A stretch of 45,311 bases of DNA from Acidimicrobiia bacterium (lineage in GTDB: Bacteria; Actinomycetota; Acidimicrobiia; Acidimicrobiales; Ilumatobacteraceae). Position numbers and translations under genes: made by a program. Location of the stretch: NCBI GenBank assembly GCA_043744155.1, contig JAYTVF010000423.1, forward strand, positions 1 through 45,311, in the 5' to 3' direction. The notes under the pieces are model-generated. The model had not been told where the DNA came from. It ran no database searches and saw only the letters and a list, made by a program, of their open reading frames with translations. Positions 22,238 through 33,858 of this stretch are shown one piece after another; the stretch's first letter is position 1; every line of letters starts with the position of its first letter.

Positions 22238-22849
22238 ATGACGCAGGGGCCGGGCAGCTGGGAACCGGGAGGGCGTGGGCGGTGTAGAAGTGAGGGAGTG
22301 CTCGATGACGAACTGGTCCGTGCTGCTGCGAGCGGCGATAGGGCGGCCTTTGGCGCGCTCGTTGATCGGCACCGCACGGCGGCCTTGCGAATTGCCTATG
22401 CCATCGCCGATGGGGAAGCGGAGGATGTCGCCCAGGACGCAACCGCGAAAGCGTTCGGGCAGTTCGACCGCTTTGATACGACCCGGCCGTTTCGACCCTG
22501 GTACCTGGCCATCGTCTCGAACGAGGCTCGCAATCGTCGCCGATCATTCCGTCGCCGATCAGCTCTGGTACTGCGGGTGGCGGCAGAGTCATCCACGGCC
22601 AGTGCGGATGATGCGGACGCTGGCGATGCTGCCGAAGCAATTGCACGTACCGAGCGCCGCCAGTACGTGCTGGATGCCATTGCCCGGCTGAACGCCGCCG
22701 ATCGCCAGGTCATCGCGATGCGCTACTTCGCCGAGCTTTCCGAGTCGGAAATGGCAGCGGCCTTGCAGATCGCGCCCGGAACGGTGAAGTCACGACTCTC
22801 ACGAGCGATGGCCCGCTTACGTGCGGCACTGGCGGGTGGGCTGCAATGA
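22238..22849 (+). CDS. ECF RNA polymerase sigma-70 factor
   Basis: ORF track 22190..22849. DDELVRAAASGDRAAFGALVDRH, DVAQDATAKAF, and region 4 VIAMRYFAELSESEMAAALQIAPGTVKSRLSRAMARLR. Start uncertain: TTG 22190, ATG 22238 or GTG 22298. Confidence 0.85.
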   Translation: MTQGPGSWEPGGRGRCRSEGVLDDELVRAAASGDRAAFGALVDRHRTAALRIAYAIADGEAEDVAQDATAKAFGQFDRFDTTRPFRPWYLAIVSNEARNRRRSFRRRSALVLRVAAESSTASADDADAGDAAEAIARTERRQYVLDAIARLNAADRQVIAMRYFAELSESEMAAALQIAPGTVKSRLSRAMARLRAALAGGLQ

Positions 22850-23787
22850 ACCCATTTGACTCGCTCGAAGCCGAACTGATCGACCTCGGTCAGCACTTGG
22901 CCATCGGCCAGCCCGTGGCCATCGGCCAGCCCGTGGAGGTCGGCCAGCCCGTGGGGGTCGGCCAGCACTTGGCCATCGGCCAGCCCGTGGGGGTCGGCCA
23001 GCAGGCAAACTTCGTGACGAGGGCGCCATGGCGTGCCCGACGCCTTCTGCAACTTGCGGCGGCGGTGCTTGTCATCCTGGCAGCGCTGTTGACATTCGGC
23101 CCGACGAGACGGGCCATCGCCAGATTTTTGGGGATCGGCGCCGTCCAAATCCAGTCGGTGCGCACGACCCTGCCAACCTCACCACCAACCACCCGATCCA
23201 GTGCGGCGCGCCCGTCAATCCCGACCGCCGGGTCAACGACCGCCGGGTCAACGACCGCCGGGCCGAGTGTCGTCGGCTCAACGACCGCCGGCTCAACGAC
23301 CGCACAGGGAACGGGGTCCACGGGTTCGGCAATTGGCACTCTGGCGTCTTCGAGCATTCCGGGCTCGGGCGCGAACAGTTCGCCTCAAACGATCAAGATC
23401 ACACCACCATTTCGGGCGCGCATGGCGCCGGATCGACTCATCCGTCAAGAACTCGACCACAGCGTCGGCGCAGGCATGCTGATTCTTAGCTATGAGAAAT
23501 ACACCTTGTTCGAGGTGGCATCGAAGAACTCGACCGTGTTCTTGATGGGAAAATTGCTGCCGCCGAACACCGTGGTGACCTTTACCAAGGTGCGAGGCGT
23601 AGATGCGGTATGGATCAGCGGCGAGCCGCACCAGGTCGTCATGTTCGATGACGACGGCACCTACCGAAGAGACACGGTCCGTACCGTAGGCAACGTGCTG
23701 GTTTGGTACGAGGACGGCGTTACGTTCCGCATCGAGGGCGTCAACAAACTCTCCGATGCGCAAGCAATCGCCGAGTCGCTGCAATAG
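22846..23787 (+). CDS. Single-pass membrane protein in the anti-sigma position, with a DUF4367-like C-terminal domain and two internal tandem repeats
   Basis: Its ATG overlaps the sigma stop (ATGA). TM helix LLQLAAAVLVILAALLTF. The C-terminus VWYEDGVTFRIEGVNKLSDAQAIAESL resembles DUF4367 ends seen in anti-sigma factors. The cytoplasmic N-terminus is mostly GQPV(A/G)(I/V) repeats. Confidence 0.7.
   Translation: MNPFDSLEAELIDLGQHLAIGQPVAIGQPVEVGQPVGVGQHLAIGQPVGVGQQANFVTRAPWRARRLLQLAAAVLVILAALLTFGPTRRAIARFLGIGAVQIQSVRTTLPTSPPTTRSSAARPSIPTAGSTTAGSTTAGPSVVGSTTAGSTTAQGTGSTGSAIGTLASSSIPGSGANSSPQTIKITPPFRARMAPDRLIRQELDHSVGAGMLILSYEKYTLFEVASKNSTVFLMGKLLPPNTVVTFTKVRGVDAVWISGEPHQVVMFDDDGTYRRDTVRTVGNVLVWYEDGVTFRIEGVNKLSDAQAIAESLQ
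22888..23001 (+). repeat. Imperfect 18-nt (hexapeptide GQPVxI/V) tandem repeat, about 6 units, inside a CDS
   Basis: DNA reads ggccagcccgtggccatc / ggccagcccgtggaggtc / ggccagcccgtgggggtc / ggccagcacttggccatc and so on. Peptide: GQHLAIGQPVAIGQPVEVGQPVGVGQHLAIGQPVGVGQQ. Confidence 0.85.
23224..23325 (+). repeat. 15-nt (pentapeptide GSTTA) tandem repeat tract inside a CDS
   Basis: gggtcaacgaccgcc and ggctcaacgaccgcc units. Peptide: AGSTTAGSTTAGPSVVGSTTAGSTTAQGTGSTGS. Confidence 0.8.
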
Positions 23788-23821
23788 GGAACCAGAACGG
23801 ACGGTGCGGTGTAGAGCAGGT

Positions 23822-25015
23822 ATGCGAATATCCGCCGGAATTGCCTGTGCCTTCGTCACCGTTGTCGTGGTCGGCTGCAGTTCGTCCGGGACGACAACCC
23901 GATCCACCACCACGAGCGCTGCCCCCCAAATCTCTCCGTCTACATCGATCGCGCCGCCCGCTGAGGCAGGCGGCGCGCCCTCGTCGGCACCGTCGGCCAG
24001 TCCTTCTCCATCCATCACCGCCTTGCTGGCGGCGACGGCCGACGCAGCGCTCCCCGACGAGCTTTCACCGGCCCTCGGGACATTTGCGGTCGTGCGGGTC
24101 GGTGAGGAGCTACGCGGCGTCGTTCCGGGCCAGCCACCGTTGTGGATTCTCGCCCGCGCAACGGTGGCATTGGATGGATCGGCCGTCGCCGCCACATCGA
24201 TGACCGCCGATGGGTTGTCAGTTGCCGTGTTCGACACTCGCAGCGGCTCTCGACTGGGTGCCTGGGCGTTCGCGCCCGATGCCGAGCTACGTGTCGTGTC
24301 GCCGGCGGGACGGTGGCTGGCTCTCACTCGCCAGGTCGGTTCCCAGACCGAGGTGATGGTGGTCGACTCGCTGCAGGGCACCAAAACGTCGCTGCAGTTC
24401 GAGGGTCGACTGGAGCCGGAGGCCTTCGCTCTCGACGGTAGGTCGGTCGTGGCGCTGGGCTATTTGGCCGACGGGCGTTATCGCGTCCAGACGATCGACC
24501 TCGCCAGCGGGGAGCGCTGGAGCACCAATGACCGCTGGAAGGCGGCCGAGAAGGAGGACATGTCGGGAATACCGGTTCGGGCGGTGATGAACGGGGACCT
24601 GCTGTCCACGCTGTACCGGGATCCCACAAGCACCGCGCATCCGGCCTTCGTGCACACGTTGAACCTGAGCAGCGGGTGGTCACATTGCGCGGATCTTCCG
24701 GCCCCATTCGGCACCGGGCCGGTCGGCTCCGATGCTGTGGTCAATTCAGTCGACGGCAACAAGCTGTACGTGGCCAGTGGCGGTTCGTTCGCCACCATCG
24801 ACGTGGATGCGGTGCGACAGCCGGCTCGCGATGAACACGATGTTGTCGCCATCAGCATCTCGCCGACGCCGCCGATCGACCGTGTGGCGTTTTCCACCCA
24901 CGGCGCGACATGGACGACGAGCGGGCTCGTTTCGCTGCACGATGGAGCGGTCGTTGCCGGGTTGAAATCGACGATCGTCGGGCCAGATGCGCAGCTGATA
25001 GCGGCTCGGGGATAG
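23822..25015 (+). CDS. Lipoprotein, beta-rich (possibly beta-propeller-like), third gene of the ECF module
   Basis: Internal ATG 23822 gives MRISAGIACAFVTVVVVGCSSSG (lipobox VVGC), followed by an S/T/A/P linker and then repetitive beta-strand-like segments. Confidence 0.7.
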   Translation: MRISAGIACAFVTVVVVGCSSSGTTTRSTTTSAAPQISPSTSIAPPAEAGGAPSSAPSASPSPSITALLAATADAALPDELSPALGTFAVVRVGEELRGVVPGQPPLWILARATVALDGSAVAATSMTADGLSVAVFDTRSGSRLGAWAFAPDAELRVVSPAGRWLALTRQVGSQTEVMVVDSLQGTKTSLQFEGRLEPEAFALDGRSVVALGYLADGRYRVQTIDLASGERWSTNDRWKAAEKEDMSGIPVRAVMNGDLLSTLYRDPTSTAHPAFVHTLNLSSGWSHCADLPAPFGTGPVGSDAVVNSVDGNKLYVASGGSFATIDVDAVRQPARDEHDVVAISISPTPPIDRVAFSTHGATWTTSGLVSLHDGAVVAGLKSTIVGPDAQLIAARG

Positions 25016-25082: not shown

Positions 25083-28000
25083 TCAGCGGATCTGAGCCAC
25101 CGACGGATCGAGAGGCCGTGCGGTCAACTTGGCGCAGGGATCCACGGGAGTGCCGCCGAACTGATCGGCCCACTCCGAGGCAGTGAATCCACGGGCGACA
25201 GCCTGGCAGGCCCGCATGATCCAGGCGGTTCCGCCGACGGTCCACGACACGGTGGTGTCGCCCTGAATGGCGACCAGTTGGCCGTTGGTCAGGGTTAGGT
25301 CCGTGATCTGATCGGCCGAGCCAGAGATAAGCGCACCACTCAAGGCCGCGCCGCGCCGGGCGCTCCAGAGGCGCAGGTCGGCATCCTGGCCACCGGTGGC
25401 GATCACATCGTTGTCGAGCCAGGCAATGGCCGAGATCAAATCAGTGTGACCCCGCAGCGTGAACGTCTCCTGCCCGGACGTGACGTTCCAGATCTTTACC
25501 GTTCGATCATCGCTGCCGCTGGCCAACAGCCGACCGTCGGGACTGAATTGCAATGCATCCACAAACAGGTGATGGCCAGCCAGGTCACTTGACCGCCCGC
25601 TGGCGAGATCGAAGAGCTTGATGGGGGAGGCTCGGCCCGGGTGGCCCGGGTCGAGCGCTGCCGTGGCAACCAGCCGGCCATCGGGGCTGATCGCTAAGGC
25701 ACGTATCTGCCCGCCGGCATCATGCAACAGCACTTGCGAGCCGGAGCGCTTCACTAGCACGTCACCATTGTCGAGGCCGAGGGCCACGGTCCCCTCGGCT
25801 GAGGCGGCCAGATCGGTGCCGTTCGTCCCGGTTGGCACAGCCAACAACACGACGTTCGACGCTGAGATCAGGCCTCGCCTCGGATCGAGTCGCACCGGGC
25901 CCGAGGGTGTGGTGATTCGACGTTGTCTACCCCCGGAGGCCCCAATGTCCGAAGGTATGACGCTGGCCAGCGGGGACTGATTGGGAGGCGGCCATGCAAT
26001 GGCGACGCCGTCCTCATCGAGCGTGAGCACCGACCCCTCGGCCGTCGCCTGAATGCTTCGGACCAAGGCATGGTGCGCACGGCGTGGTGAACCCACGACT
26101 GCGCCCGACGGCACGGCGATCTCGACGACATCACCCGAGCGCAGCCCCCCGACGAGTACCTCGGCATTGCGCCAGGCGACGCTGGTCAACAGGATGGGCA
26201 CAATCACCGGTTCGGATCGTCCATCCCAAATGGTCACCGATCCGGTGCCTACTGCGGCGATACGACGTTGTCCCGATATTGTTGCGAGTGCAACCACTGG
26301 GTTGGGGCTTATCGACAGTGGGCCAGCCGTCAGGGCACTGGTCGACGGCGTCCAAAACGCTAGGTCACCCGTATCGGAGCCGAGCGCGACGGTGTCATCA
26401 TCGACCGCAGCGAGAGCGGAGATCGGAACGGCGCCGAACGGTCGCGAGCTTGTCGGCGAGGCGGTAGGGGTCGCCAGCGACCATTGCAGCAGCGTGCCGT
26501 CGGTGGCTGTGGCGAGCAACCAAGACCCGACGACGGCGATGGCCTGCAGGCGAGCCGCGCCGGCCGCGGCAAAGGGCACCCAACCCGGCCCGGCGATGTC
26601 GGCGATGACCAGCTCACCACCTCGGGATCCGCTGATGAGCCGCCCCGATGCCGCATCGACCACCGCCAACTCGTTCACTGCCACGCCGGTGCTGATCGGC
26701 GACGAGGCAGGAGCACCGGTAACGGCGTCGAGCACCTTTACCGTCGGGCTGCCGTCGGCCACGAACACCGTCCGCCGCCCGCCACCGGTGGCCGGGGCGA
26801 TTGCTGCGACGGGTCCCTGCAGGCCAGCCCGTAGATATGTCGAAGGTCCGGGAGCACCGAGAGCGTCCACCAGCGCCGACCAGCTATCGGTGGTGCTCGA
26901 CCGGCGCACACCTTCCAGGGTCAGCAGTAGGGAGAGATCGCGATTCTGCGACGAGGTGGCGCGACCGGCGGCGGCCAGCCGCAAGGTTTGGGCGACCTTG
27001 CGCAGGCTGCGTTCACGGGAACTTTGGCGAACCGCCACCAAGGCCACTGCACCCAGAGCCAGCGTCACGACCAAGAGCGCGGCGAGGCCGCGGCGGATCT
27101 GCTGCAACCGTCGGCTGCGCTCGGCCGTGCTGCGATGCCGATCCATTGATTGGGCCACGAATGCGGTCTCGTCCTCGGTGAGTTGCAGGGTTCGGCGCGT
27201 CACGGCATCGTGTGCCGACTCGACCTGGGTTCCGGACCGCAATGCCTCTGGTGATCGCCCCGATACCACCCACTCGGCGGTGGCTTGGGATATCCACCCT
27301 TGTAACCGTCGGGCCTCGGCGCCCGAACCTTGCAACCAATCAACCGACAGCCGCGGCCATGATCTCAGCAGCGCCTCGTGCACGATCTCGACGGTGGTGT
27401 CGGGATCATCTTTGGCGTGGGTGACGGTGAACAGCCGATAGCCCCGGAAGGTGTCGACGAACCGGGCTGCGCTTGCGAAGGAGGACGACGACAGCTCGGC
27501 CATGGTGGCTCGCCGTCGGGTCGGTTCGAGCCCGATGCCTTGGGTGGTGAGCCGCATCGAAAAGGCCCATTCCGCCAGCTGCCTGTCGCTGTCGTCGAGG
27601 TCGCCGTAGGCCCGCTCAGCCAGACGCTCGAGCGCCTTTTCGACGCCACCCGAGGCGCGATATCCCGCGATCTCCAGTCGGCCCCGATACCGGGCCTCCC
27701 AGGTAGAACGCAGCGCGACGGCCAGCAGCGGTAGGGCACCCGGGGTCGGCGGAATGTCCAGTTGGATCTCCTCGACCAGACCGTTCTCGAGCGTGAGCGA
27801 GGCGGCGCGTGCCGGTCCTTCGATGATTTCTCGCCAATCGGCACGGTCGAGCGGTTGCACTCGAACGAGGTTCGTGTCGATCAGTCGTTGCAGATCCGGG
27901 GCGACGTCAAACGCTGCGCTGACATCGGATCGGAACGACACGATGATGTGGACGAAGCGCTGAGAAGCCACCGCTTCGACAATGGCTGCGGTGACCTCCG

Positions 28001-28433
28001 CGGTCGGTACTCCGGGCAGGAAGATCTGTTCGGCCTGATCGATCCAGACCACCCGGTGTTCGCCGCCGGTGGCCAGCCCGGCCGGTACATCAGCGCGCGG
28101 ATCGAGCTCGATGATGACGCTTCCGGACTCTCGCAGCTCGGGCAGCAAACCGGCTCGGATGAGCGAACTCTTCCCGACTCCGGATGCTCCGACCACGGCG
28201 GTGAAGGGTGTGGTACCGACGCGACGGACGAGTTCCGCGATCTCGTCATCGCGGCCGAAGAGAAAGGCGCGATCTGACTCTCGGAATGGACTCAAGCCGG
28301 GGTAGGGACACGGATCGTTGGGGGTGCGGGTCGGGTCTTCGCGCCCGTACACCACGTCTCGCCCGGCCACCACTGACCCGGTGATGTGAGCCCCGTCTCC
28401 GAAGACTACCGATGAACCGCCGGGCTCAGTCAC
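25083..28433 (-). CDS. NLR-like STAND P-loop NTPase (nSTAND/NACHT-type) with an N-terminal 21-aa coupling motif, a central hydrophobic helix and a C-terminal WD40 beta-propeller region
   Basis: ORF track 1116 aa (GTG start). CPYPGLSPFRESDRAFLFGRDDEI followed by Walker A VVGASGVGKSSL (nt 28167-28190) and Walker B-like VVWIDQAEQ. Hydrophobic helix GLAALLVVTLALGAVALVAV (nt 27030-27089). Clear WD repeats, e.g. LASGSDDRTVKIWNV and GHTDLISAIAW...GGQDADLRLWS. Confidence 0.9.
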   Translation of the reverse strand: MTEPGGSSVVFGDGAHITGSVVAGRDVVYGREDPTRTPNDPCPYPGLSPFRESDRAFLFGRDDEIAELVRRVGTTPFTAVVGASGVGKSSLIRAGLLPELRESGSVIIELDPRADVPAGLATGGEHRVVWIDQAEQIFLPGVPTAEVTAAIVEAVASQRFVHIIVSFRSDVSAAFDVAPDLQRLIDTNLVRVQPLDRADWREIIEGPARAASLTLENGLVEEIQLDIPPTPGALPLLAVALRSTWEARYRGRLEIAGYRASGGVEKALERLAERAYGDLDDSDRQLAEWAFSMRLTTQGIGLEPTRRRATMAELSSSSFASAARFVDTFRGYRLFTVTHAKDDPDTTVEIVHEALLRSWPRLSVDWLQGSGAEARRLQGWISQATAEWVVSGRSPEALRSGTQVESAHDAVTRRTLQLTEDETAFVAQSMDRHRSTAERSRRLQQIRRGLAALLVVTLALGAVALVAVRQSSRERSLRKVAQTLRLAAAGRATSSQNRDLSLLLTLEGVRRSSTTDSWSALVDALGAPGPSTYLRAGLQGPVAAIAPATGGGRRTVFVADGSPTVKVLDAVTGAPASSPISTGVAVNELAVVDAASGRLISGSRGGELVIADIAGPGWVPFAAAGAARLQAIAVVGSWLLATATDGTLLQWSLATPTASPTSSRPFGAVPISALAAVDDDTVALGSDTGDLAFWTPSTSALTAGPLSISPNPVVALATISGQRRIAAVGTGSVTIWDGRSEPVIVPILLTSVAWRNAEVLVGGLRSGDVVEIAVPSGAVVGSPRRAHHALVRSIQATAEGSVLTLDEDGVAIAWPPPNQSPLASVIPSDIGASGGRQRRITTPSGPVRLDPRRGLISASNVVLLAVPTGTNGTDLAASAEGTVALGLDNGDVLVKRSGSQVLLHDAGGQIRALAISPDGRLVATAALDPGHPGRASPIKLFDLASGRSSDLAGHHLFVDALQFSPDGRLLASGSDDRTVKIWNVTSGQETFTLRGHTDLISAIAWLDNDVIATGGQDADLRLWSARRGAALSGALISGSADQITDLTLTNGQLVAIQGDTTVSWTVGGTAWIMRACQAVARGFTASEWADQFGGTPVDPCAKLTARPLDPSVAQIR

Positions 28434-28450
28434 GCCAACTCAACGGATCG

Positions 28451-29317
28451 TCATGTGGCGACGCGCAGCGTATCGGCCAGCGCGAATGCATCCACGTCAT
28501 ACTGCACAGGAGTACCACGGATCGTGCAGGTGGTGCCGTGTCTCAGTACCGTCACGGTAAGGGTGGTCGTGCTCGACAAGCTGGTGTCGCCGCTGCACAC
28601 GTCGTTGTAGACCAGCTCGATAGTGCGATCCTCGTTCACGGTGATGGTGGCGTTGAAGGTGTTGCCGACGACCTTGGCTTTAGGGGCATCGGTCCAAACA
28701 CCACGGGTGATGCGGGCCACCCACGTCACGTCGGTGCCCTGGTCGGGAGCGGCAAGCCAGCCCGTCGGTGGGGCGACGCTCGCTCTGATCCGACAGGTAT
28801 AGCTCGGGTAGGCAATTGCGGTCACGTTGCTCTCGACCGAGGTGCCCTGCAGCGTGCACCCACCCCTTTCGACCTTGATGGTCACCTTGGCGCCACTGAG
28901 GGCCGTGGCGGAGACGACCCCTTTGGCCGACGGGCTCGAGCCGGGCTGGGTGCGCAAAAGGGTAATGGCATCCTGTTTCGCGGCCCCTGCCGTGGTGGCG
29001 ACCGCGGTCGTGCTCGCCTCGATCGTGGTCACTGGGGCTGCGGTCGTGGTTGTCGCCAGCGCGGTGGCAGGCTCTGTCGCGGCGGACGATGTGGCTGACG
29101 GTGCCGTGATTGGCGCCACCGTCTCTGCCAACACCGTCGCCGTCGCGGCCGTCGCAGCGACGGTCGTGCCATCCTCGGGCGAGGTTGTGGCTGGCTTGTC
29201 GACAGAGAATGGTGGGGCATTGCTGCTCGATGATGGTGGGGTCGACGCGCTCGTCGAGCAGCCCGTCGCGCCGAGCGCCAGCGCTCCCAGCATCATCAGC
29301 GATAGGTGCGGCCGCAT
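28451..29317 (-). CDS. Lipoprotein with a T/A/P-rich linker and a six-Cys beta-rich C-terminal domain, encoded between the TIR and STAND genes
   Basis: ORF track 288 aa. MRPHLSLMMLGALALGATGCSTS (lipobox LGATGC). The start shares one nucleotide with the TIR stop (TGATG). The stop is 17 nt before the STAND GTG. Confidence 0.75.
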   Translation of the reverse strand: MRPHLSLMMLGALALGATGCSTSASTPPSSSSNAPPFSVDKPATTSPEDGTTVAATAATATVLAETVAPITAPSATSSAATEPATALATTTTAAPVTTIEASTTAVATTAGAAKQDAITLLRTQPGSSPSAKGVVSATALSGAKVTIKVERGGCTLQGTSVESNVTAIAYPSYTCRIRASVAPPTGWLAAPDQGTDVTWVARITRGVWTDAPKAKVVGNTFNATITVNEDRTIELVYNDVCSGDTSLSSTTTLTVTVLRHGTTCTIRGTPVQYDVDAFALADTLRVAT

Positions 29318-29883
29318 CAGCTTGACCTTCCGACGTCTCGGCCGGCGATAGTCGACCCGCTGATGACGGCACCGTTGCCGATCACGACCGAGGAGTCGAC
29401 GCTCGACGGTGTCGTAACCGGATCTGGCACAGGCGGCGGAGCGACCCGCGCGGCGACCGGCGGCACCGAGGTGGTTGGCCCGCCACCTGCGCCGGAGCCG
29501 GAGAGAGCCAGTCGCGCCTGTACCTGGCTGAGTACATGTCCGAGGGCGTTGTCGGCAAACCAGTTGATGGCGTGCAGGCTGCGGAATCCGAGGGGCAGTT
29601 CGGCGTCGGGGGTCAACAGAATGGAGAGCAGTTTGTTTGATCGTCTGGCAAAGTCGGCCTCGTCGAGCACCCAGTCCGAGTGGGGGCCCTCACCCCAACA
29701 CACGATGATGACGGTGGCCGCCTCCAGACGCTCCTGTATCTCTGCACCGAACCGATCCCCGCCGACCAAGGCCTGATCCCACCACACATGGTGACCAGCG
29801 GCTTGGAGAACCTCGACCAGTACGCGGACTCGCGGTCGGGTTGGCGTGTGATAGCTGACGAAGATGACCGGCGACTCGAGCAT
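29317..29883 (-). CDS. TIR-domain (TIR_2-like) protein with a Pro-rich linker and a C-terminal 21-aa motif shared with the STAND N-terminus
   Basis: ATG 29883 (GTG 29892 also possible; GGGGG upstream). VIFVSYHTPTR...VWWDQALVGGDRFGAEIQERLEAATVIIVCWGEGPHSDWVLDEADFA fits the TIR_2 pattern, including the W-V-x-x-E glutamate. The tail is SSVVIGNGAVISGSTIAGRDVGRSS. Confidence 0.85.
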   Translation of the reverse strand: MLESPVIFVSYHTPTRPRVRVLVEVLQAAGHHVWWDQALVGGDRFGAEIQERLEAATVIIVCWGEGPHSDWVLDEADFARRSNKLLSILLTPDAELPLGFRSLHAINWFADNALGHVLSQVQARLALSGSGAGGGPTTSVPPVAARVAPPPVPDPVTTPSSVDSSVVIGNGAVISGSTIAGRDVGRSS

Positions 29884-30041
29884 GGCGCTCACCCCCAGGT
29901 ACCGCTGTCGTATCGAACCCCACCGACCCTATACGGCCCGGCCTTGGTCAGCATGGCCGCGATGCAGCGCATCGTCAAGGACCGAAACGGTTCGTGTCGA
30001 TACAAGGTGCAGAACGAGAATCCACCAGTAGCCTCACGGGA

Positions 30042-30959
30042 ATGGTGCGACCTTTTCGGTTTGGTGTGCAAGCTTTGAAACTCCACCAAGCCGCAGCCAT
30101 CGTGTCGGCGGCCAAGCAGGCCGAAGACCTTGGCTATGACGAGCTTTTCTCCTACGACCACTTCGGAGCCGAGGATCCTTTCATCCCGCTGATGCTGGCC
30201 GCAGGCGCCACGTCACGGCTCCGGCTTGGTCCGCTGGTGTTGAACAATGAGTTCCACCAGCCCGCCCTTCTGGCCCGCACTGCGGCGACCGTCGATCGGC
30301 TCACGGGCGGTCGATTGGTGCTGGGTTTCGGGACCGGATACGACCAGACCGAGCACGACGCCATCGGCGTGCTGCTCCGAGATCCGCCTGACCGGGTGCG
30401 CCGATTGGAAGAATCAGTCCTCGCTGTGCGGGCATTGCTCGACTCGGGCGTTTCGAATATGGCGGGCGACTACCACACTTTGGCGGTCTCAGAGCTTGGC
30501 ATTCGGCCGGTCCAGAACCGCGTCCCATTCCTGATCGGCGGGAACGGGAAGCGGTTAGTCGAGGTCGCCGCCCGGCATGCCGACATCTTTCAGTTCACCG
30601 GGCTGAGCCACGGGGTGAACGGGGCACCGGGCATCGAGGGGTTCCGATTCGAGTCAGTGGTGCTGCGGAACAACTGGTTCATGCGGGCGGCTGGGCATCG
30701 TCTGAGCACCGTCGAGCGATCGGTGCTGGTGCAGGTCTGCCATATCGGGCACGGCGCCCATGAACAGAACGAAGCGCTGGTGAAACGGTGGAATTTCGAT
30801 CTGCATACGGTGCAACGCACTCCGTTCGCGCTGGTAGGCTCGATCCGCCAAGTCGTCGACAAACTGCAGTGGTTACGCGACGAGTTGGGTGTGAATCATG
30901 TGGTGGTGCGCAATGCCGAAGGCTTCGCGCCGATCGTGGCAGCCCTCGCCGGACACTGA
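30042..30959 (+). CDS. Luciferase-like (LLM class) F420-dependent oxidoreductase
   Basis: Internal ATG 30042 (MVRPFRFGVQ...). DELFSYDHFG, RLRLGPLVLNNEFHQPALLARTAATVDRLTGGRLVLGFGTGY are typical of LLM/F420 enzymes. Confidence 0.85.
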   Translation: MVRPFRFGVQALKLHQAAAIVSAAKQAEDLGYDELFSYDHFGAEDPFIPLMLAAGATSRLRLGPLVLNNEFHQPALLARTAATVDRLTGGRLVLGFGTGYDQTEHDAIGVLLRDPPDRVRRLEESVLAVRALLDSGVSNMAGDYHTLAVSELGIRPVQNRVPFLIGGNGKRLVEVAARHADIFQFTGLSHGVNGAPGIEGFRFESVVLRNNWFMRAAGHRLSTVERSVLVQVCHIGHGAHEQNEALVKRWNFDLHTVQRTPFALVGSIRQVVDKLQWLRDELGVNHVVVRNAEGFAPIVAALAGH

Positions 30960-30974
30960 CCCTAGGATGCCTCA

Positions 30975-31949
30975 ATGCAGCACAGCATGCTTGGCTCCAC
31001 AGATATCGCGGTATCGCGAATCATTCTGGGCTGCGGCAATTTCGGCGGCATCGGCTCGTCCCCGGCCTTCTTTGGTCAAGGCACCGCGCAGGCCGACGCG
31101 TTTGCGCTGATGGATGCCGCGTGGGAGGCAGGCATCACTACCTTCGATACGGCCGACGCCTACGGGGGCGGACGCAGCGAATCGTTCATCGGCGCATGGC
31201 TGGCGTCCAAGCCCTCATCGGTTCGGGATGCGCTTGTTCTCGCGACAAAGACCTACAACCCGATGTTCGAAGGAGCCGACGCCGGTCTTGGTGGTGTTCG
31301 GATACGTCGTCAGATCGACAGCAGCCTTGGTCGGCTCGGCGTGGATCGCGTACCGCTCTACCTTGCTCACGAGTGTGACCCAATGGTGCCGGTGGAAGAA
31401 ACGTTGGCGGCCTTCGATGCGCTCATACACGACGGCAAGGTGGGGGCCGTCGGCGCATCAAACTTCACGACGGATCAACTCGCGGCCTCGTTGGAGGTAT
31501 CGGCGGCCGGCGGTGGCGCCAGGTACGGATGGGTACAGAACTCGTTTTCGCTGCTCGAGCGCGGCGACGAGCGGGGCGTGCTGCCGTTGTGTACGGCCAC
31601 GGGGCTCGGCTACACACCGTTCAGTCCGCTGGCGGGTGGATGGCTCACCGGCAAGTATCGCCGTGATTTCGCACTGCCAGCTGGCTCCCGCATGACCACG
31701 CGACCAGAGCCCTACGAGGCGTACCGCACCGACCAGGTGTACGGAGCGTTGGAAACGTTGCGAGCTCTCGCGGCCGGTGCCGGCTGCAGCATGGCGGCGC
31801 TCTCGCTGGCGTGGGCGCTGGCCCAACCTGGCATCACCGCCATCGTGATCGGCCCCAACCGCGTCGACCAGCTCTCCCCGGCGCTCGAAGCCGTCGACCG
31901 AGCCGTTTCGCCGGACCTGCTCGCCCAGCTTTCGGAGGTGTTTGTATGA
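30975..31949 (+). CDS. Aldo/keto reductase
   Basis: ORF track 324 aa. LGCGNFGG, GITTFDTADAYGGGRSE, and VLATK, GASNF motifs. Confidence 0.9.
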   Translation: MQHSMLGSTDIAVSRIILGCGNFGGIGSSPAFFGQGTAQADAFALMDAAWEAGITTFDTADAYGGGRSESFIGAWLASKPSSVRDALVLATKTYNPMFEGADAGLGGVRIRRQIDSSLGRLGVDRVPLYLAHECDPMVPVEETLAAFDALIHDGKVGAVGASNFTTDQLAASLEVSAAGGGARYGWVQNSFSLLERGDERGVLPLCTATGLGYTPFSPLAGGWLTGKYRRDFALPAGSRMTTRPEPYEAYRTDQVYGALETLRALAAGAGCSMAALSLAWALAQPGITAIVIGPNRVDQLSPALEAVDRAVSPDLLAQLSEVFV

Positions 31950-32911
31950 CCGTTCTCATCCTGTCGGACCGCGACGTGCGCGATCTGCTCGACATGCCGT
32001 CGTGCATCAGCGCGATGGAGGAGGTGTTGGCCGAGCTGGAACGCGGTCTACTTTTCAACCCCTTACGGTTCGTGACCCGACCGCCAGCGGATACCTTCAT
32101 GGGGTTTATGCCGGCCTATCGCGCCGGTGCCGAACCGTTGTATTCACTAAAGGAAGTGGTGATCGCTACGGCGAACCACAACCGCGGCCTCGATTCGCAT
32201 CAGGGAGCGGTGCTGGTGCACGACGGTGTCACCGGCGTGCTGCGCTCCGTGGTGAATGCATCGGCAATCACCGAGATTCGCACCGCAGCCGTGTCTGCGG
32301 TAGCCACGAAGTTGCTGGCCCGATCCGGGGCTGCTTCGGTGGCCATCGTCGGTGCTGGGGTCCAGGCCCGGTCGCATGTGGCGGCCATGCAGGCCTGCTT
32401 TGCGTCCGCGCGAATCACGGTGTGGAGTCGCACCCGAGCCCACGCCGAGGCCCTCGCGGCTGATTCGGGCTGCGAGGTGGCCGACTCGCTCGACGCTGCG
32501 CTACGCGGGGCCGATGTGGTTTGCACCACAACGTCATCTCGCGAGCCCATCATCACCCGCGCCATGCTGTCGCCTGGCACGCACTACAACGCAGTGGGTT
32601 CGTCCATCGCTGCGGCCCGCGAGTTCGACGCCGAGGCGATGGCGGCCGTTTCATTGTTTGTCGATCGGCGCGAATCGACGCTGAACGAATCGGGCGATTA
32701 CCTCGATGCGGCGCGTGAGGTCGGCATCGGCCCCTCGCACATCCGAGCCGAGTTGGGCGAGTTACTGATCGGCGCTCATCCCGGTCGCGTCGATGATCAG
32801 GAGATGACGCTGTTCAAATCTCTCGGCATCGCAGTGGAAGATCTGGCCGCCGCTGAATTGTGCATCCGGCGTGCCCGCGAGCGTGGCGTCGGCACGGAGG
32901 CCGCGTGGTGA
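31946..32911 (+). CDS. Ornithine cyclodeaminase/mu-crystallin family NAD-dependent enzyme
   Basis: ATG 31946 overlaps the AKR stop (ATGA). MTVLILSDRDVRDLLDM..., ITEIRTAAVSAVATKLLAR, VAIVGAGVQARSH (Rossmann). Confidence 0.9.
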   Translation: MTVLILSDRDVRDLLDMPSCISAMEEVLAELERGLLFNPLRFVTRPPADTFMGFMPAYRAGAEPLYSLKEVVIATANHNRGLDSHQGAVLVHDGVTGVLRSVVNASAITEIRTAAVSAVATKLLARSGAASVAIVGAGVQARSHVAAMQACFASARITVWSRTRAHAEALAADSGCEVADSLDAALRGADVVCTTTSSREPIITRAMLSPGTHYNAVGSSIAAAREFDAEAMAAVSLFVDRRESTLNESGDYLDAAREVGIGPSHIRAELGELLIGAHPGRVDDQEMTLFKSLGIAVEDLAAAELCIRRARERGVGTEAAW

Positions 32912-33858
32912 TCCCGCTCGAAGAAATCGAAGCGGCTCGACTGCGGATCGCTGACGTCGCGGTACGCACCCCGCTGATCCGACTGTATGCCCCGGAATCG
33001 CCTGCCGAGATCTGGCTCAAACTTGAATGCCTGCAGCCCATCGGCGCATTCAAGATACGGGGGGCGGCCAACGCCATGCGTACAGCACCAGAGGCGGCGT
33101 TGTCTCACGGGGCGTGGACGACCAGCGCCGGCAACATGGCCCAGGGTGTGGCCTGGATGGCGCGCGAGATGGGCATTCCCTCCGCCGTAGTCGTGCCTGA
33201 TCACGCGCCGTCGGGAAAATTGGACGCCATCGAGCGGCTGGGCGGTCGGGTCATCAAGGTGCCGTTCGACCGCTGGTGGCAAGCCATGGTGGAAGGTGAG
33301 TATCCCGGTGTAGAAGGGCATTTCGTCCACCCGGTGCAAGACGATGCAGTGATGGCCGGGAACGGCACCATTGGGCTTGAACTGGCCGAAGACCTCGATG
33401 ACATCGATGGCGTGCTCGTGCCGTGGGGCGGCGGTGGTTTGGCCACTGGTATCGCCAGCGCGCTTCACGCCCGTAGCCCGCACACCAAGGTGTACTCATG
33501 CGAACCGGCCAGCGGTGCACCGATGCATGCGTCATGGGCGGCGGGTACGCCCGTCGGCGTCGACTTTGCCCCTTCCTTCGTGGACGGTTCGGGCAGTAAG
33601 AGCCTGCTGCCCGCCATGTGGGAACGGGCGCGGCCGCTGCTGTCGGGCACCTTCGCCCCGTCGTTGGATGACACCGCGGCCGCCGTTCGGGTGCTGGCCA
33701 CGCGCGCTCGCGTCGTGGCCGAAGGCGCCGGCGCATTGTCCGTCGCCGCAGCGTTGTCCGGCGGCGCAGGCTCAGGCCGCCTCGTGTGCATCGTGTCCGG
33801 CGGCAACATCGACGCCGCCAAACTCGCCACCATCCTACAAGGCGGCACTCCCGGCTGA
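32908..33858 (+). CDS. PLP-dependent threonine/serine dehydratase-family enzyme (fold type II)
   Basis: GTG 32908 overlaps the OCD stop (GTGA). LQPIGAFKIRGAANAM carries the PLP-lysine context. GGGGL loop. C-terminal IVSGGNID. Confidence 0.9.
   Translation: MIPLEEIEAARLRIADVAVRTPLIRLYAPESPAEIWLKLECLQPIGAFKIRGAANAMRTAPEAALSHGAWTTSAGNMAQGVAWMAREMGIPSAVVVPDHAPSGKLDAIERLGGRVIKVPFDRWWQAMVEGEYPGVEGHFVHPVQDDAVMAGNGTIGLELAEDLDDIDGVLVPWGGGGLATGIASALHARSPHTKVYSCEPASGAPMHASWAAGTPVGVDFAPSFVDGSGSKSLLPAMWERARPLLSGTFAPSLDDTAAAVRVLATRARVVAEGAGALSVAAALSGGAGSGRLVCIVSGGNIDAAKLATILQGGTPG

What the first reader, a model, noticed from the sequence alone, without database searches (positions are those of the whole stretch)
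28353..29394. 21-residue motif shared by the TIR C-terminal tail and the STAND N-terminus (candidate homotypic/amyloid-type signalling pair)
The TIR tail (nt 29332-29394) reads SSVVIGNGAVISGSTIAGRDV. STAND residues 7-27 (nt 28353-28415) read SSVVFGDGAHITGSVVAGRDV. That is 15 of 21 identical residues, with conservative changes elsewhere. At DNA level most shared codons differ at synonymous positions (tcc tcg gtc gtg atc ggc... versus tca tcg gta gtc ttc gga...). The similarity is therefore maintained by selection on the peptide and is not a recent duplication. In the TIR protein the motif follows a Pro-rich flexible linker. In the STAND protein it is the extreme N-terminus, immediately before the NTPase. 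This matches the architecture of the fungal NWD2/HET-S paradigm and of the bacterial NLR-associated amyloid signalling motifs reported in filamentous Actinobacteria and Cyanobacteria. In those systems an activated NLR templates the short motif of a neighbouring effector. The G/hydrophobic alternation (G.GA.I.GS..AG) is compatible with a beta-arch fold. A TIR effector recruited this way would be a notable variant.
Basis: partly seen in the sequence, partly recalled or inferred. Interest (0 to 1): 0.85.

Follow-up and report, generated by a model that had tools for sequence, protein, structure and literature searches.

The report
Shared signalling motif linking TIR and STAND
A 21-residue peptide at the end of a TIR enzyme is repeated at the start of a nearby STAND ATPase and kept by selection, so it most likely lets the activated sensor recruit and switch on the enzyme, a bacterial design already described but not in this exact form.

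Summary
On the minus strand, the TIR C-tail (nt 29332-29394) and the STAND N-terminus (nt 28353-28415) share 15 of 21 residues, and 9 of the 15 shared residues use different codons. No other six-frame 21-mer in the window exceeds 8/21.

A motif profile searched against 1.84 billion proteins gave six hits. Three are TIR_2 C-tails, two of them 18/21 identical in motif on TIR domains only 50% and 27% identical overall. One is an nSTAND1 N-terminus. Two are membrane proteins with tandem copies.

The best reading is a homotypic beta-motif pair of the NLR-associated amyloid-signalling (BASS) type. An oligomerised nSTAND1 would template the TIR tail and cluster an NADase-competent TIR. Fibril formation is untested.

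- The two genes are not adjacent. A conserved lipoprotein gene sits between them.
- The STAND has a predicted membrane helix between the NTPase and the WD40 region.
- TIR-BASS pairs are already published (Dyrka 2020, Ibarlosa 2024).

The motif fits none of BASS1-10 convincingly; BASS2 is weakly the nearest. The NTPase is nSTAND1, not NACHT or NB-ARC. Verdict: a new variant of a known kind, of moderate interest.

The parts
29317..29892 (-). TIR effector gene. 191 aa from GTG 29892, or 188 aa from the likely ATG at 29883. Stop codon at 29319-29317.
   Evidence: Pfam TIR_2 3.8e-15, aa 10-114. A family profile hits bacterial TIR NADases in the PDB: 7uxr, AbTir 7uwg/8g83, Cat1, SARM1. Glu75 in SDWVLDE is invariant and aligns with the W..E Glu of those chains.
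29551..29865 (-). TIR_2 domain (aa 10-114 of the 191-aa ORF).
29395..29535 (-). Gly/Pro-rich flexible linker between the TIR domain and the motif.
   Evidence: Read directly from the sequence. It diverges strongly and carries indels among orthologs while the motif is conserved.
29332..29394 (-). Effector-side motif SSVVIGNGAVISGSTIAGRDV, followed by GRSS and the stop codon.
28451..29317 (-). Intervening gene: 288-aa predicted lipoprotein. It has a signal peptide with lipobox LGATG|C, a Ser/Thr/Ala/Pro-rich linker, and a ~170-aa C-terminal domain with conserved Cys. Its start overlaps the TIR stop (TGATG).
   Evidence: The homologous gene follows the TIR gene in L001, L002, L006 and L007-L009 and precedes the STAND in L010. 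It has no Pfam, NCBIfam or PADLOC hit.
25083..28433 (-). STAND gene, 1116 aa: N-terminal motif, nSTAND1 NTPase, one predicted TM helix, WD40/beta-propeller region.
   Evidence: Pfam nSTAND1 1.4e-80 (aa 43-395) and WD40 families at aa ~876-1068. TM helix.
28353..28415 (-). Receptor-side motif SSVVFGDGAHITGSVVAGRDV (aa 7-27), 15 residues before the nSTAND1 domain.
   Evidence: The ortholog fragment P0074 carries SSVVFGDGAQITGSVVAGRDV at the same place.
27249..28307 (-). nSTAND1 NTPase module (aa 43-395), with Walker A GASGVGKSS.
   Evidence: sequence
27030..27086 (-). Predicted transmembrane helix LAALLVVTLALGAVALVAV (aa 450-468).
   Evidence: Kyte-Doolittle 19-residue mean of 2.82. A hydrophobic helix of this kind, beyond the NTPase where I inspected it, occurs in 24 of 68 nSTAND1 homologs, many of the rest being truncated.
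25230..25808 (-). Recognisable WD40 repeats (aa ~876-1068) within the ~640-aa C-terminal region.

Best explanation
This is a three-gene operon: TIR-motif, lipoprotein, motif-nSTAND1-TM-WD40. The 21-residue Gly/Val/Ile/Ser-rich peptide is a homotypic beta-strand assembly motif of the NLR-associated amyloid-signalling (BASS/HET-s-like) type, and it replaces a covalent TIR-STAND fusion.

Proposed sequence of events:
1. A trigger is sensed by the WD40 side.
2. The nSTAND1 NTPase oligomerises and brings several N-terminal motifs together.
3. Those motifs fold cooperatively into a stacked beta-arch or solenoid nucleus. One 21-residue unit is one rung, with three short strands (VVI, AxI, SxI) separated by the Gly positions.
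4. The nucleus templates the identical-register motif at the end of the TIR protein.
5. Polymerisation through the ~45-residue Pro-rich tether concentrates TIR domains.
6. The TIR domains self-associate and become active NAD+ hydrolases, and the cell dies or arrests.

Shown here: the motif pair, purifying selection on it, its near-exclusive occurrence on TIR tails and an nSTAND1 N-terminus, the domain identities, and the catalytic Glu.

Inferred: oligomerisation-driven templating, fibril formation, and NADase activation by clustering.
For: - The motif pair is real and far beyond chance.
- Selection acts on the peptide. TIR orthologs P0002 and P0003 keep the motif (0-2 non-synonymous against 5-10 synonymous codon changes), while the linker diverges with indels.
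- P0075 and P0076 carry the motif at 18/21 identity on TIR domains only 50% and 27% identical overall.
- The side-specific residues are kept in a second lineage: IGNGAV on the TIR side (P0002) and FGDGA[HQ] on the STAND side (P0074). This argues against homogenisation by gene conversion.
- An unbiased profile search of 1.84 billion proteins returned only 6 hits at E<=1e-3: three TIR_2 C-tails, one nSTAND1 N-terminus, and two membrane proteins with 2-3 tandem copies.
- nSTAND1 homologs exist as covalent TIR_2-nSTAND1 fusions (P0006, P0059, P0060, P0067, P0068, P0072). Others carry cyclase, caspase, kinase or trypsin-like heads. This is the 'all-in-one versus split' pattern that accompanies known amyloid-signalling pairs.
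- The same NTPase clade forms a canonical pair elsewhere. In L013, a HetE-N 135-aa protein has the tail NMSGGVVQGVAGAENVQIGSMTFG, and the adjacent nSTAND1 N-terminus reads TVTGGQIQGVAGAGTVHIENFTIY. In L012, a second pair shares GDIVGRDK.
- The motif has no Pro, Lys or Leu and is Gly/Val/Ile/Ser-rich. It shares the G-R-D signature seen in the BASS1, BASS2 and BASS8 sequence sets.
- The TIR is NADase-type with the catalytic Glu conserved, and its PDB relatives include filament-activated TIRs (AbTir, Cat1).
- Published precedent: BASS motifs with TIR2 effectors, and BASS11 proven to signal by amyloid conversion in E. coli antiphage defence and also found with TIR.
Against: - No experiment or structure shows that this peptide forms fibrils.
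- It does not match BASS1-10 profiles. The best is BASS2 at 5-6 bits, reached by about 1.5% of shuffles.
- It lacks the Gln of the BASS2 core, and has Asn at only one position on one side.
- The BASS6 resemblance is compositional only.
- AF2 on a protein with three tandem copies (P0078) predicts disorder, not a solenoid. That was a single-sequence run and is weak evidence.
- The complete pair is seen in only one physically linked locus (the window), plus one unlinked pair of fragments from a single sample (L001 and L010).
- The STAND partners of P0075 and P0076 are cut off by contig ends.
- The genes are not adjacent. A lipoprotein gene of unknown role intervenes.
Confidence: 0.55

Rival explanations
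1. Static, non-amyloid tether. The two copies form a stoichiometric beta-strand heterodimer that keeps the soluble TIR permanently docked on the membrane-anchored STAND. This would be a short functional equivalent of the helical effector-associated domains (EADs) described for nSTAND1 systems. Activation would come only from STAND oligomerisation, with no templated polymerisation.
For: nSTAND1 systems are described as coupling effectors through homotypic adaptor domains. The STAND is predicted to be membrane-anchored while the TIR has no membrane segment, so a docking tag makes sense. The motif lacks the N/Q ladders typical of many BASS families and fails their profiles. All comparative evidence for selection fits this reading equally well.
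Against: A 21-residue Gly-punctuated all-beta peptide after a disordered linker is the format of the proven templating motifs (HET-s/NWD2, BASS11), not of known stable dimerisation domains. Tandem copies of the same motif in P0077 and P0078 suggest stacking of repeated units rather than a 1:1 interface.
Confidence: 0.27
2. Independent localisation or polymer tag. The motif is a bactofilin-like beta-helical or membrane-associating segment that sends both proteins separately to the same place or partner, without direct motif-motif contact.
For: Two unrelated membrane proteins carry 2-3 tandem copies right after a TM segment, and one gives a weak Bactofilin hit (18.8 bits, below the 27.9 cut-off).
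Against: Neither window protein hits Bactofilin at E<=0.01. The motif sits precisely at the effector C-terminus and the STAND N-terminus, as in templating pairs. The STAND already has its own membrane helix.
Confidence: 0.1
3. Meaningless similarity: compositional chance in a GC-rich genome, or a recent duplication or gene-conversion remnant.
For: Gly/Val/Ala/Ser-rich peptides are common in 64% GC genomes. Shuffled versions of the peptide reach BASS6-like scores easily.
Against: The next best six-frame match is 8/21 against 15/21. 9 of 15 shared residues use different codons. The motif is conserved across TIR domains only 27-50% identical overall, and there are only six hits in 1.84 billion proteins.
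Confidence: 0.02

Closest known systems
Bacterial amyloid signalling sequences (BASS1-10) in Bell/NLR gene pairs (Dyrka et al. 2020, bioRxiv 10.1101/2020.01.06.895854), including the reported non-Bell effectors (TIR2, CHAT, alpha/beta-hydrolase, guanylate cyclase)
   Same: A short (~21-25 aa) beta-prone motif sits at the effector C-terminus after a flexible linker and at the extreme N-terminus of a STAND ATPase with WD40 repeats. The genes are collinear, overlapping or tightly spaced. All-in-one fusions of the same effector exist. The G-R-D signature is shared with BASS1, BASS2 and BASS8. The identity between the two sides (15/21) is in the published range.
   Different: The NTPase is nSTAND1, not NACHT or NB-ARC. 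The motif does not pass profiles of BASS1-10 (weakly BASS2-like, no core Gln). A conserved lipoprotein gene separates the two genes. The STAND has a predicted membrane helix.
Bab/Agp BASS11 antiphage system of E. coli (Ibarlosa et al. 2024, bioRxiv 10.1101/2024.11.07.622273)
   Same: It is a split effector/sensor pair coupled by a ~24-residue Gly-punctuated motif. That motif is proven to convert to amyloid on phage infection. BASS11 is also reported next to TIR, CHAT, NACHT and NB-ARC.
   Different: The sensor there is TPR-GreA/B-C-PIN, not a STAND, and the effector is a small pore-forming Bell-like domain. The BASS11 sequence is not printed in the accessible text, so it could not be compared.
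Fungal NWD2/HET-S (HRAM motif)
   Same: A 21-residue unit sits at the NLR N-terminus and in the effector tail. The NLR carries WD40 repeats. The logic is activation by templating after NLR oligomerisation.
   Different: HET-S carries two pseudo-repeats and a HeLo pore-forming domain. Here there is one copy on each side and an enzymatic TIR effector. No sequence similarity was tested.
nSTAND1 ternary conflict systems with EAD/Death-like adaptors (Kaur et al. 2021, PMC8195603)
   Same: The NTPase clade is the same, and so is the effector repertoire (TIR, caspase, trypsin, kinase), coupled non-covalently to the NTPase by a homotypic module.
   Different: Coupling there is through helical adaptor domains, by my recollection on the order of 100 residues. 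Here only 42 residues precede the NTPase, and the shared module is a 21-residue beta motif.
Filament- or oligomer-activated bacterial TIR NADases (AbTir, Cat1, TIR-SAVED, SPARTA)
   Same: The TIR_2 fold and catalytic Glu are shared. The proposed activation is by induced higher-order assembly.
   Different: In those systems assembly is driven by a ligand, a nucleic acid or the TIR itself, not by a C-terminal peptide templated by a STAND.

Membership tests
NLR/STAND-associated amyloid signalling pair (BASS/FASS architecture) | The same short motif occurs at the effector C-terminus and at the STAND/NLR N-terminus. | tested here: met
   15/21 identity: TIR aa 167-187 of 191, STAND aa 7-27.
NLR/STAND-associated amyloid signalling pair (BASS/FASS architecture) | The two genes are adjacent or within 5 kb, collinear and likely co-transcribed. 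| tested here: met
   Same strand, with 883 bp between the TIR stop and the STAND start. One gene lies between them, joined by a 1-nt overlap and a 17-nt gap. No promoter-like site on the operon strand (the single promoter-like hit is on the opposite strand, inside the STAND gene) and no terminator-like site inside the operon. They are not strictly adjacent.
NLR/STAND-associated amyloid signalling pair (BASS/FASS architecture) | The receptor is a NACHT or NB-ARC NTPase (as the family was defined operationally by Dyrka 2020). | tested here: not met
   The NTPase is nSTAND1 (272 bits), with no NACHT or NB-ARC among the 25 best of 36 Pfam hits shown. However, nSTAND1 forms a canonical pair with a HetE-N protein in L013.
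NLR/STAND-associated amyloid signalling pair (BASS/FASS architecture) | The motif is more conserved than the adjoining linker and the effector domain. | tested here: met
NLR/STAND-associated amyloid signalling pair (BASS/FASS architecture) | All-in-one proteins exist with the same effector fused to the same NTPase. | tested here: met
   TIR_2+nSTAND1 fusions P0006, P0059, P0060, P0067, P0068 and P0072.
NLR/STAND-associated amyloid signalling pair (BASS/FASS architecture) | Composition bias: enriched in G, V, I, N, Q and depleted in K, P, L. | tested here: inconclusive
   There is no K, P or L, and 4 Gly, 4-5 Val and 1-3 Ile. But there is no Gln, and one Asn on the TIR side only (sequence; criteria).
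NLR/STAND-associated amyloid signalling pair (BASS/FASS architecture) | The peptides form amyloid fibrils, and the receptor side seeds the effector side. | not testable with these tools
   This needs ThT/Congo red, EM, ssNMR and in vivo reporter assays.
BASS2 | Match to the family profile or consensus (..N.[IV]SG.....GPV[IV]Q[AG]RD[IF].G). | tested here: inconclusive
   An HMM built from 53 published BASS2 sequences scores 5.8 and 5.3 bits, and about 1.5% of shuffles reach that. The best pairwise score is reached by 2/2000 shuffles on the STAND side and 122/2000 on the TIR side. The core Gln is replaced by Ala.
BASS6 | Match to the family profile or sequences (ASGERS[IV]A.GG.[IV].G.[IV].TGD). 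| tested here: not met
   The HMM scores below 1 bit. Against 58 BASS6 sequences, 108/500 (TIR) and 25/500 (STAND) shuffles reach the observed score.
BASS1, BASS3-5, BASS7-10 | Match to the family sequences or profiles. | tested here: not met
   Pairwise and HMM scores lie mostly within the shuffle range. One isolated BASS5 pairwise hit for the TIR tail (0/200 shuffles) is not supported by the STAND side. BASS10 was tested pairwise only, because a single sequence was available.
BASS11 | Match to the BASS11 consensus. | not testable with these tools
   The sequence and logo appear only in figures, and no supplement is held.
TIR-domain NAD+ hydrolase | TIR fold plus the catalytic Glu in the W-x-x-x-E helix. 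| tested here: met
   TIR_2 at 56.9 bits. Glu75 is invariant in 7 relatives and aligns with the Glu of AbTir-type chains. That this Glu is catalytic rests on established knowledge. Enzyme activity itself was not testable.
nSTAND1 NTPase (Pfam PF20703) | Profile match over the full domain, plus Walker A. | tested here: met
   1.4e-80, profile positions 1-378 of 379; GASGVGKSS.
EAD/Death-like adaptor coupling (Kaur et al. 2021) | A helical adaptor domain is shared by effector and NTPase. | tested here: not met
   No Pfam domain other than TIR_2 is found in the effector. Only 42 residues precede nSTAND1.
Bactofilin (PF04519) | Profile match above the gathering score. | tested here: not met
   The window proteins give no hit at E<=0.01. 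P0078 scores 18.8 bits, below the 27.9 cut-off.

The most novel reading that the evidence does not exclude
The system is an outside-in STAND receptor. The single membrane helix would put the ~640-residue WD40 propeller outside the cytoplasm, and the conserved, Cys-containing lipoprotein encoded between the two genes would act as its co-sensor. An envelope-level event such as phage adsorption or cell-wall damage would then be relayed across the membrane to the cytoplasmic nSTAND1 NTPase. The NTPase would activate a soluble TIR NADase through prion-like templating of a new motif family (working name 'SSVVIG..GRDV'). This would be a transmembrane NLR-like immune receptor using amyloid signalling, which has not been described.
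Probability: 0.2. Interest if true: 0.8.

Novelty: new variant of a known kind. Interest (0 to 1): 0.5.

Why it matters
If the peptide works as proposed, amyloid-type signal relay in bacteria extends in three ways: to a third STAND clade (nSTAND1), to an enzymatic TIR effector, and to a motif outside the eleven named BASS families. It would also give a compact, testable pair (about 25 residues each) for asking whether fibre-templated clustering is enough to switch on a TIR NADase.

The conserved lipoprotein and the predicted membrane helix raise a further possibility. Some NLR-like bacterial receptors may sense events outside the cytoplasm, which would change how these 'intracellular' receptors are viewed. 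If the peptide is only a static docking tag, the locus is still a clean example of a minimal adaptor replacing a domain fusion.

Tried and rejected
- **Orthologous full loci.** The TIR protein search gave only two close orthologs, both on contigs cut just after the TIR gene. The genome-contig scan returned only two unrelated alphaproteobacterial TIR loci with no STAND. The lipoprotein profile found only the window's own protein. The metagenome scan with the lipoprotein alignment found nothing. A degenerate DNA pattern for the motif matches every fetched locus but has 0 matches in metagenome contigs and viral contigs. Co-variation of the two sides across diverged systems could therefore not be tested.
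- **BASS6 membership.** It looked right by eye (SGSTI, IGG.V), but composition-matched shuffles score as well, so I rejected it.
- **Structure prediction.** P0078, with three tandem motif copies, came back disordered over the repeats (pLDDT <30). The lipoprotein C-domain had pLDDT 34. Neither was usable for fold search.
- **PDB search.** A single-sequence search with the TIR gave no hit. The profile search worked.
- **Taxonomy.** Cluster look-up returned no names. The organism is probably an actinobacterium (64% GC; named nSTAND1 relatives are mostly Actinobacteria, with some Chloroflexi). This is inference only.
- **Context of P0077 and P0078.** Contigs were too short or no DNA was available.
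- **BASS11 comparison.** The sequence is not in the accessible text.


Full report
**What is there**

The finding lies in a minus-strand gene cluster of three ORFs.
- 29317..29892 encodes a 191-aa protein (188 aa from the likely ATG at 29883). It has a Pfam TIR_2 domain (aa 10-114, E 3.8e-15), a Gly/Pro-rich linker, and the tail SSVVIGNGAVISGSTIAGRDVGRSS*.
- 28451..29317 encodes a 288-aa protein. It has a signal peptide ending in a lipobox (LGATG|C), a Ser/Thr/Ala/Pro-rich linker, and a ~170-aa C-terminal domain. It matches nothing in Pfam, PADLOC or NCBIfam. Its ATG shares one base with the TIR stop codon (TGATG).
- 25083..28433 encodes a 1116-aa protein that begins MTEPGGSSVVFGDGAHITGSVVAGRDV. 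It has a full-length nSTAND1 NTPase (aa 43-395, E 1.4e-80) and WD40 repeats near the C-terminus.

GTG 28433 is the first possible start after an in-frame TGA, and it is conserved in an ortholog fragment. No terminator-like site lies inside the cluster, and the only promoter-like site is on the opposite strand inside the STAND gene.

**Check of the observation**

The two 21-mers are at the stated coordinates. They share 15/21 residues and 44/63 nucleotides. Of the 15 shared residues, 9 use different codons. Among 62,192 stop-free six-frame 21-mers of the window, the next best match to the TIR motif is 8/21, with BLOSUM62 score 31 against 73 for the real pair. A degenerate DNA pattern for the motif hits only these two sites, with 0.00 expected in shuffles. 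The one correction is that the two genes are not neighbours, because the lipoprotein gene lies between them.

**Is the motif under selection, and where else does it occur?**

Two close TIR orthologs from metagenomes (P0002 and P0003, 76-77% identical) keep the motif. Motif codons show 0-2 non-synonymous against 5-10 synonymous changes, while the preceding linker is rearranged by substitutions and indels.

A profile of the motif was searched against 1.84 billion representative proteins, with no word index. It returned six hits at E<=1e-3:
- P0003, the TIR ortholog.
- P0074, an nSTAND1 fragment whose first residues are MTDPGGSSVVFGDGAQITGSVVAGRDVVYGRQ.
- P0075 and P0076, two TIR_2 proteins whose domains are only 50% and 27% identical overall to the window protein. 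Their tails, again after a Pro-rich linker, read SSVVIGAGAVITGSTVAGRDV and SSVVIGAGAVVSGSTVAGRDV, which is 18/21 identical to the window motif.
- P0077 and P0078, two membrane-anchored proteins with 2-3 tandem copies of a related unit.

So the motif is not scattered among unrelated proteins. It is better conserved than the enzyme it is attached to. The residues that differ between the two sides are kept in a second lineage: IGNGAV on the TIR side (P0002) and FGDGA[H/Q] on the STAND side (P0074). This argues against homogenisation by gene conversion.

**The third gene and the membrane helix**

In every locus that could be read, the TIR gene is followed, with an overlapping start, by a homolog of the lipoprotein. 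This holds for L001, L002, L006 and L007-L009. In L010 the C-terminal end of that gene precedes the STAND start. The C-domains are 32% identical between the most distant pair. Three Cys are invariant in all three sequences aligned, and a fourth is shared by the two that cover that position.

The STAND has one strong hydrophobic helix (aa 450-468) between the NTPase and the ~640-residue propeller region. A comparable helix, lying after the NTPase in the sequences I read, is found in 24 of 68 nSTAND1 homologs, and many of the others are truncated. Taken together, the sensor half of the system may lie outside the cytoplasm. This is an inference from hydropathy and from a lipobox, and nothing more.

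**What the TIR and the STAND are**

A profile of the TIR family hits bacterial TIR NADases in the PDB: 7uxr, AbTir 7uwg/8g83, PdTIR 3h16, the Cat1 filament, SPARTA TIR-APAZ and SARM1. The Glu in SDWVLDE is invariant and aligns with the W..E Glu of those chains. That this Glu is the catalytic residue rests on established knowledge of TIR NADases.

nSTAND1 was defined by Kaur et al. 2021 as the central NTPase of bacterial conflict systems that deploy TIR, caspase, trypsin or kinase effectors. Among 68 homologs found here, several are covalent TIR_2-nSTAND1 fusions. Others carry cyclase, caspase, kinase, trypsin-like or HTH heads. A third group has only a short N-terminal peptide. For that group:
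- In L013, a 135-aa HetE-N protein, which I take to be Bell-like, ends in NMSGGVVQGVAGAENVQIGSMTFG. The adjacent nSTAND1 begins TVTGGQIQGVAGAGTVHIENFTIY.
- In L012, a small protein and the adjacent nSTAND1 share GDIVGRDK.

The NTPase clade of the window therefore takes part in motif-pair systems of the published kind.

**Most likely mechanism**

The best-supported reading is that the 21-mer is a homotypic beta-assembly motif standing in for a TIR-STAND fusion. On activation the NTPase oligomerises. Its N-terminal motifs come together and fold into a stacked beta-arch nucleus. That nucleus templates the TIR tails. The tethered TIR domains are concentrated enough to self-associate and hydrolyse NAD+.

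The motif has the right format for this. It is 21 residues long, the length of one HET-s rung (from my own knowledge). It has three short hydrophobic stretches separated by Gly. It contains no Pro, Lys or Leu. It carries the G-R-D signature visible in the published BASS1, BASS2 and BASS8 sets.

Precedent exists. Dyrka et al. 2020 report BASS motifs on TIR2, CHAT, hydrolase and cyclase effectors. Ibarlosa et al. 2024 prove amyloid conversion for BASS11 in an E. coli antiphage system and note BASS11 next to TIR.

The steps shown here are the motif pair, its selection, its distribution and the domain identities. Templating, fibril formation and activation by clustering are inferred. I put this reading at 0.55.

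**Rivals**

- A static, non-amyloid docking tag that keeps the soluble TIR on the membrane-anchored STAND fits all the comparative data equally well. It cannot be separated from templating by sequence analysis (0.27).
- An independent bactofilin-like localisation tag is suggested only by the tandem copies in P0077 and P0078 and a sub-threshold Bactofilin hit. The window proteins do not hit that family (0.10).
- Chance or a duplication remnant is contradicted (0.02).

**Comparison with named families**

I used the published BASS sequence sets from the supplement of PMC8086366.
- Family HMMs give at most 5.8 bits (BASS2), a score reached by about 1.5% of composition-matched shuffles.
- Pairwise, the STAND side resembles BASS2: DGAHITGSVVAGRD against DGARITGPVIQGRD, reached by 2/2000 shuffles. 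The TIR side does not clearly do so (122/2000). The core Gln of BASS2 is absent.
- The BASS6 resemblance that strikes the eye is compositional.
- BASS11 could not be compared, because its sequence appears only in figures.

The system works like a BASS pair, but it is not a demonstrable member of BASS1-10. Its NTPase is not NACHT or NB-ARC, which were the operational criteria of that study. It also does not use the helical EAD adaptors described for nSTAND1 systems.

**Limits**

The family is rare in the collections I could search. The complete pair is seen in one physically linked locus, plus two unlinked fragments from one sample. Co-variation between the two sides in diverged systems could not be tested, because the contigs carrying P0075 and P0076 end inside the lipoprotein gene. 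Structure predictions were uninformative.

**Verdict**

The homotypic signalling-pair reading is the best explanation and the selection argument is right. The amyloid nature is untested, the genes are not adjacent, and a TIR effector on a BASS-type motif is already in the literature. This is a new variant of a known kind: a new motif, the nSTAND1 clade, and an interposed lipoprotein with a possible transmembrane receptor. Interest is about 0.5.

Noticed in passing
window 28451-29317 (-): A 288-aa predicted lipoprotein gene (lipobox LGATG|C, Ser/Thr-rich linker, ~170-aa C-domain with four conserved Cys positions, three of them invariant) lies between the TIR and STAND genes. Its start overlaps the TIR stop. 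The same gene follows the TIR gene in L001, L002, L006 and L007-L009 and precedes the STAND in L010. It has no family hit, and the AF2 model was unusable (pLDDT 34).
   Followed up: partly
window 27030-27086 (-), STAND aa 450-468: There is a single strong predicted transmembrane helix between the nSTAND1 NTPase and the WD40 region. A comparable hydrophobic helix occurs in 24 of 68 nSTAND1 homologs, after the NTPase in the sequences I read. It implies a membrane-anchored STAND, possibly with an extracytoplasmic propeller.
   Followed up: partly
L001 7790-7850 (P0002 C-terminus): One TIR ortholog has the motif followed by a tandem expansion GRDVGRDVGRDLGRDVGRDLGQSS in place of GRSS. This looks like tetrapeptide-repeat slippage at the very C-terminus that is evidently tolerated.
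   Followed up: no
P0077 (aa ~80-230) and P0078 (aa ~72-160); L011 242-1189: Two lower-GC proteins have N-terminal membrane helices (two long helices in the AF2 model of P0078, aa 5-35 and 41-65) followed by 2-3 tandem copies of a related unit (SSVVINENANISGNIAGRDIG, SSVDIGKGTDVSGNVAGHDI, SSVVIGQNASVSGYVAGRDVV), then a helical C-domain. One gives a weak sub-threshold Bactofilin hit. Single-sequence AF2 predicts the repeats as disordered. No genomic context could be obtained.
   Followed up: partly
L013 312-1436: This is a canonical motif pair in the same NTPase clade. A HetE-N (probably Bell-like) 135-aa protein has the C-tail ...NMSGGVVQGVAGAENVQIGSMTFG, and 25 bp downstream an nSTAND1 begins MTDATVETTVTGGQIQGVAGAGTVHIENFTIY. 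P0022, P0023, P0024 and P0031 carry similar N-termini.
   Followed up: partly
L012 177-3042: A 132-aa protein carries the shared motif at its N-terminus (SNVSMTGGDIVGRDKV), not its C-terminus. It is next to an nSTAND1 starting ...ANVVIDRGDIVGRDKL and is followed by a gene with a faint caspase (Peptidase_C14) hit. This is an unusual orientation for a motif pair.
   Followed up: no
window 29994-33858 (+) versus L001 3219-7038 and L002 691-1608: The TIR cluster sits next to the same metabolic genes (luciferase-like monooxygenase, aldo/keto reductase, then the ornithine cyclodeaminase and PALP genes in L001, of which only PALP was scanned in the window) in the window and in its two relatives. It therefore looks stably inherited in this lineage and not part of an obvious mobile island. 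Beyond these genes, L001 carries an AAA_15/AAA_21 ATPase plus a DUF4276 protein and a DDE transposase fragment that I did not see among the window genes I scanned.
   Followed up: no
window 22846-23787 (+) and 23756-25015 (+): Two long ORFs (313 and 419 aa) converge on the 3' end of the STAND gene. Neither has a Pfam or NCBIfam hit. Whether they are real genes or belong to the system was not examined.
   Followed up: no
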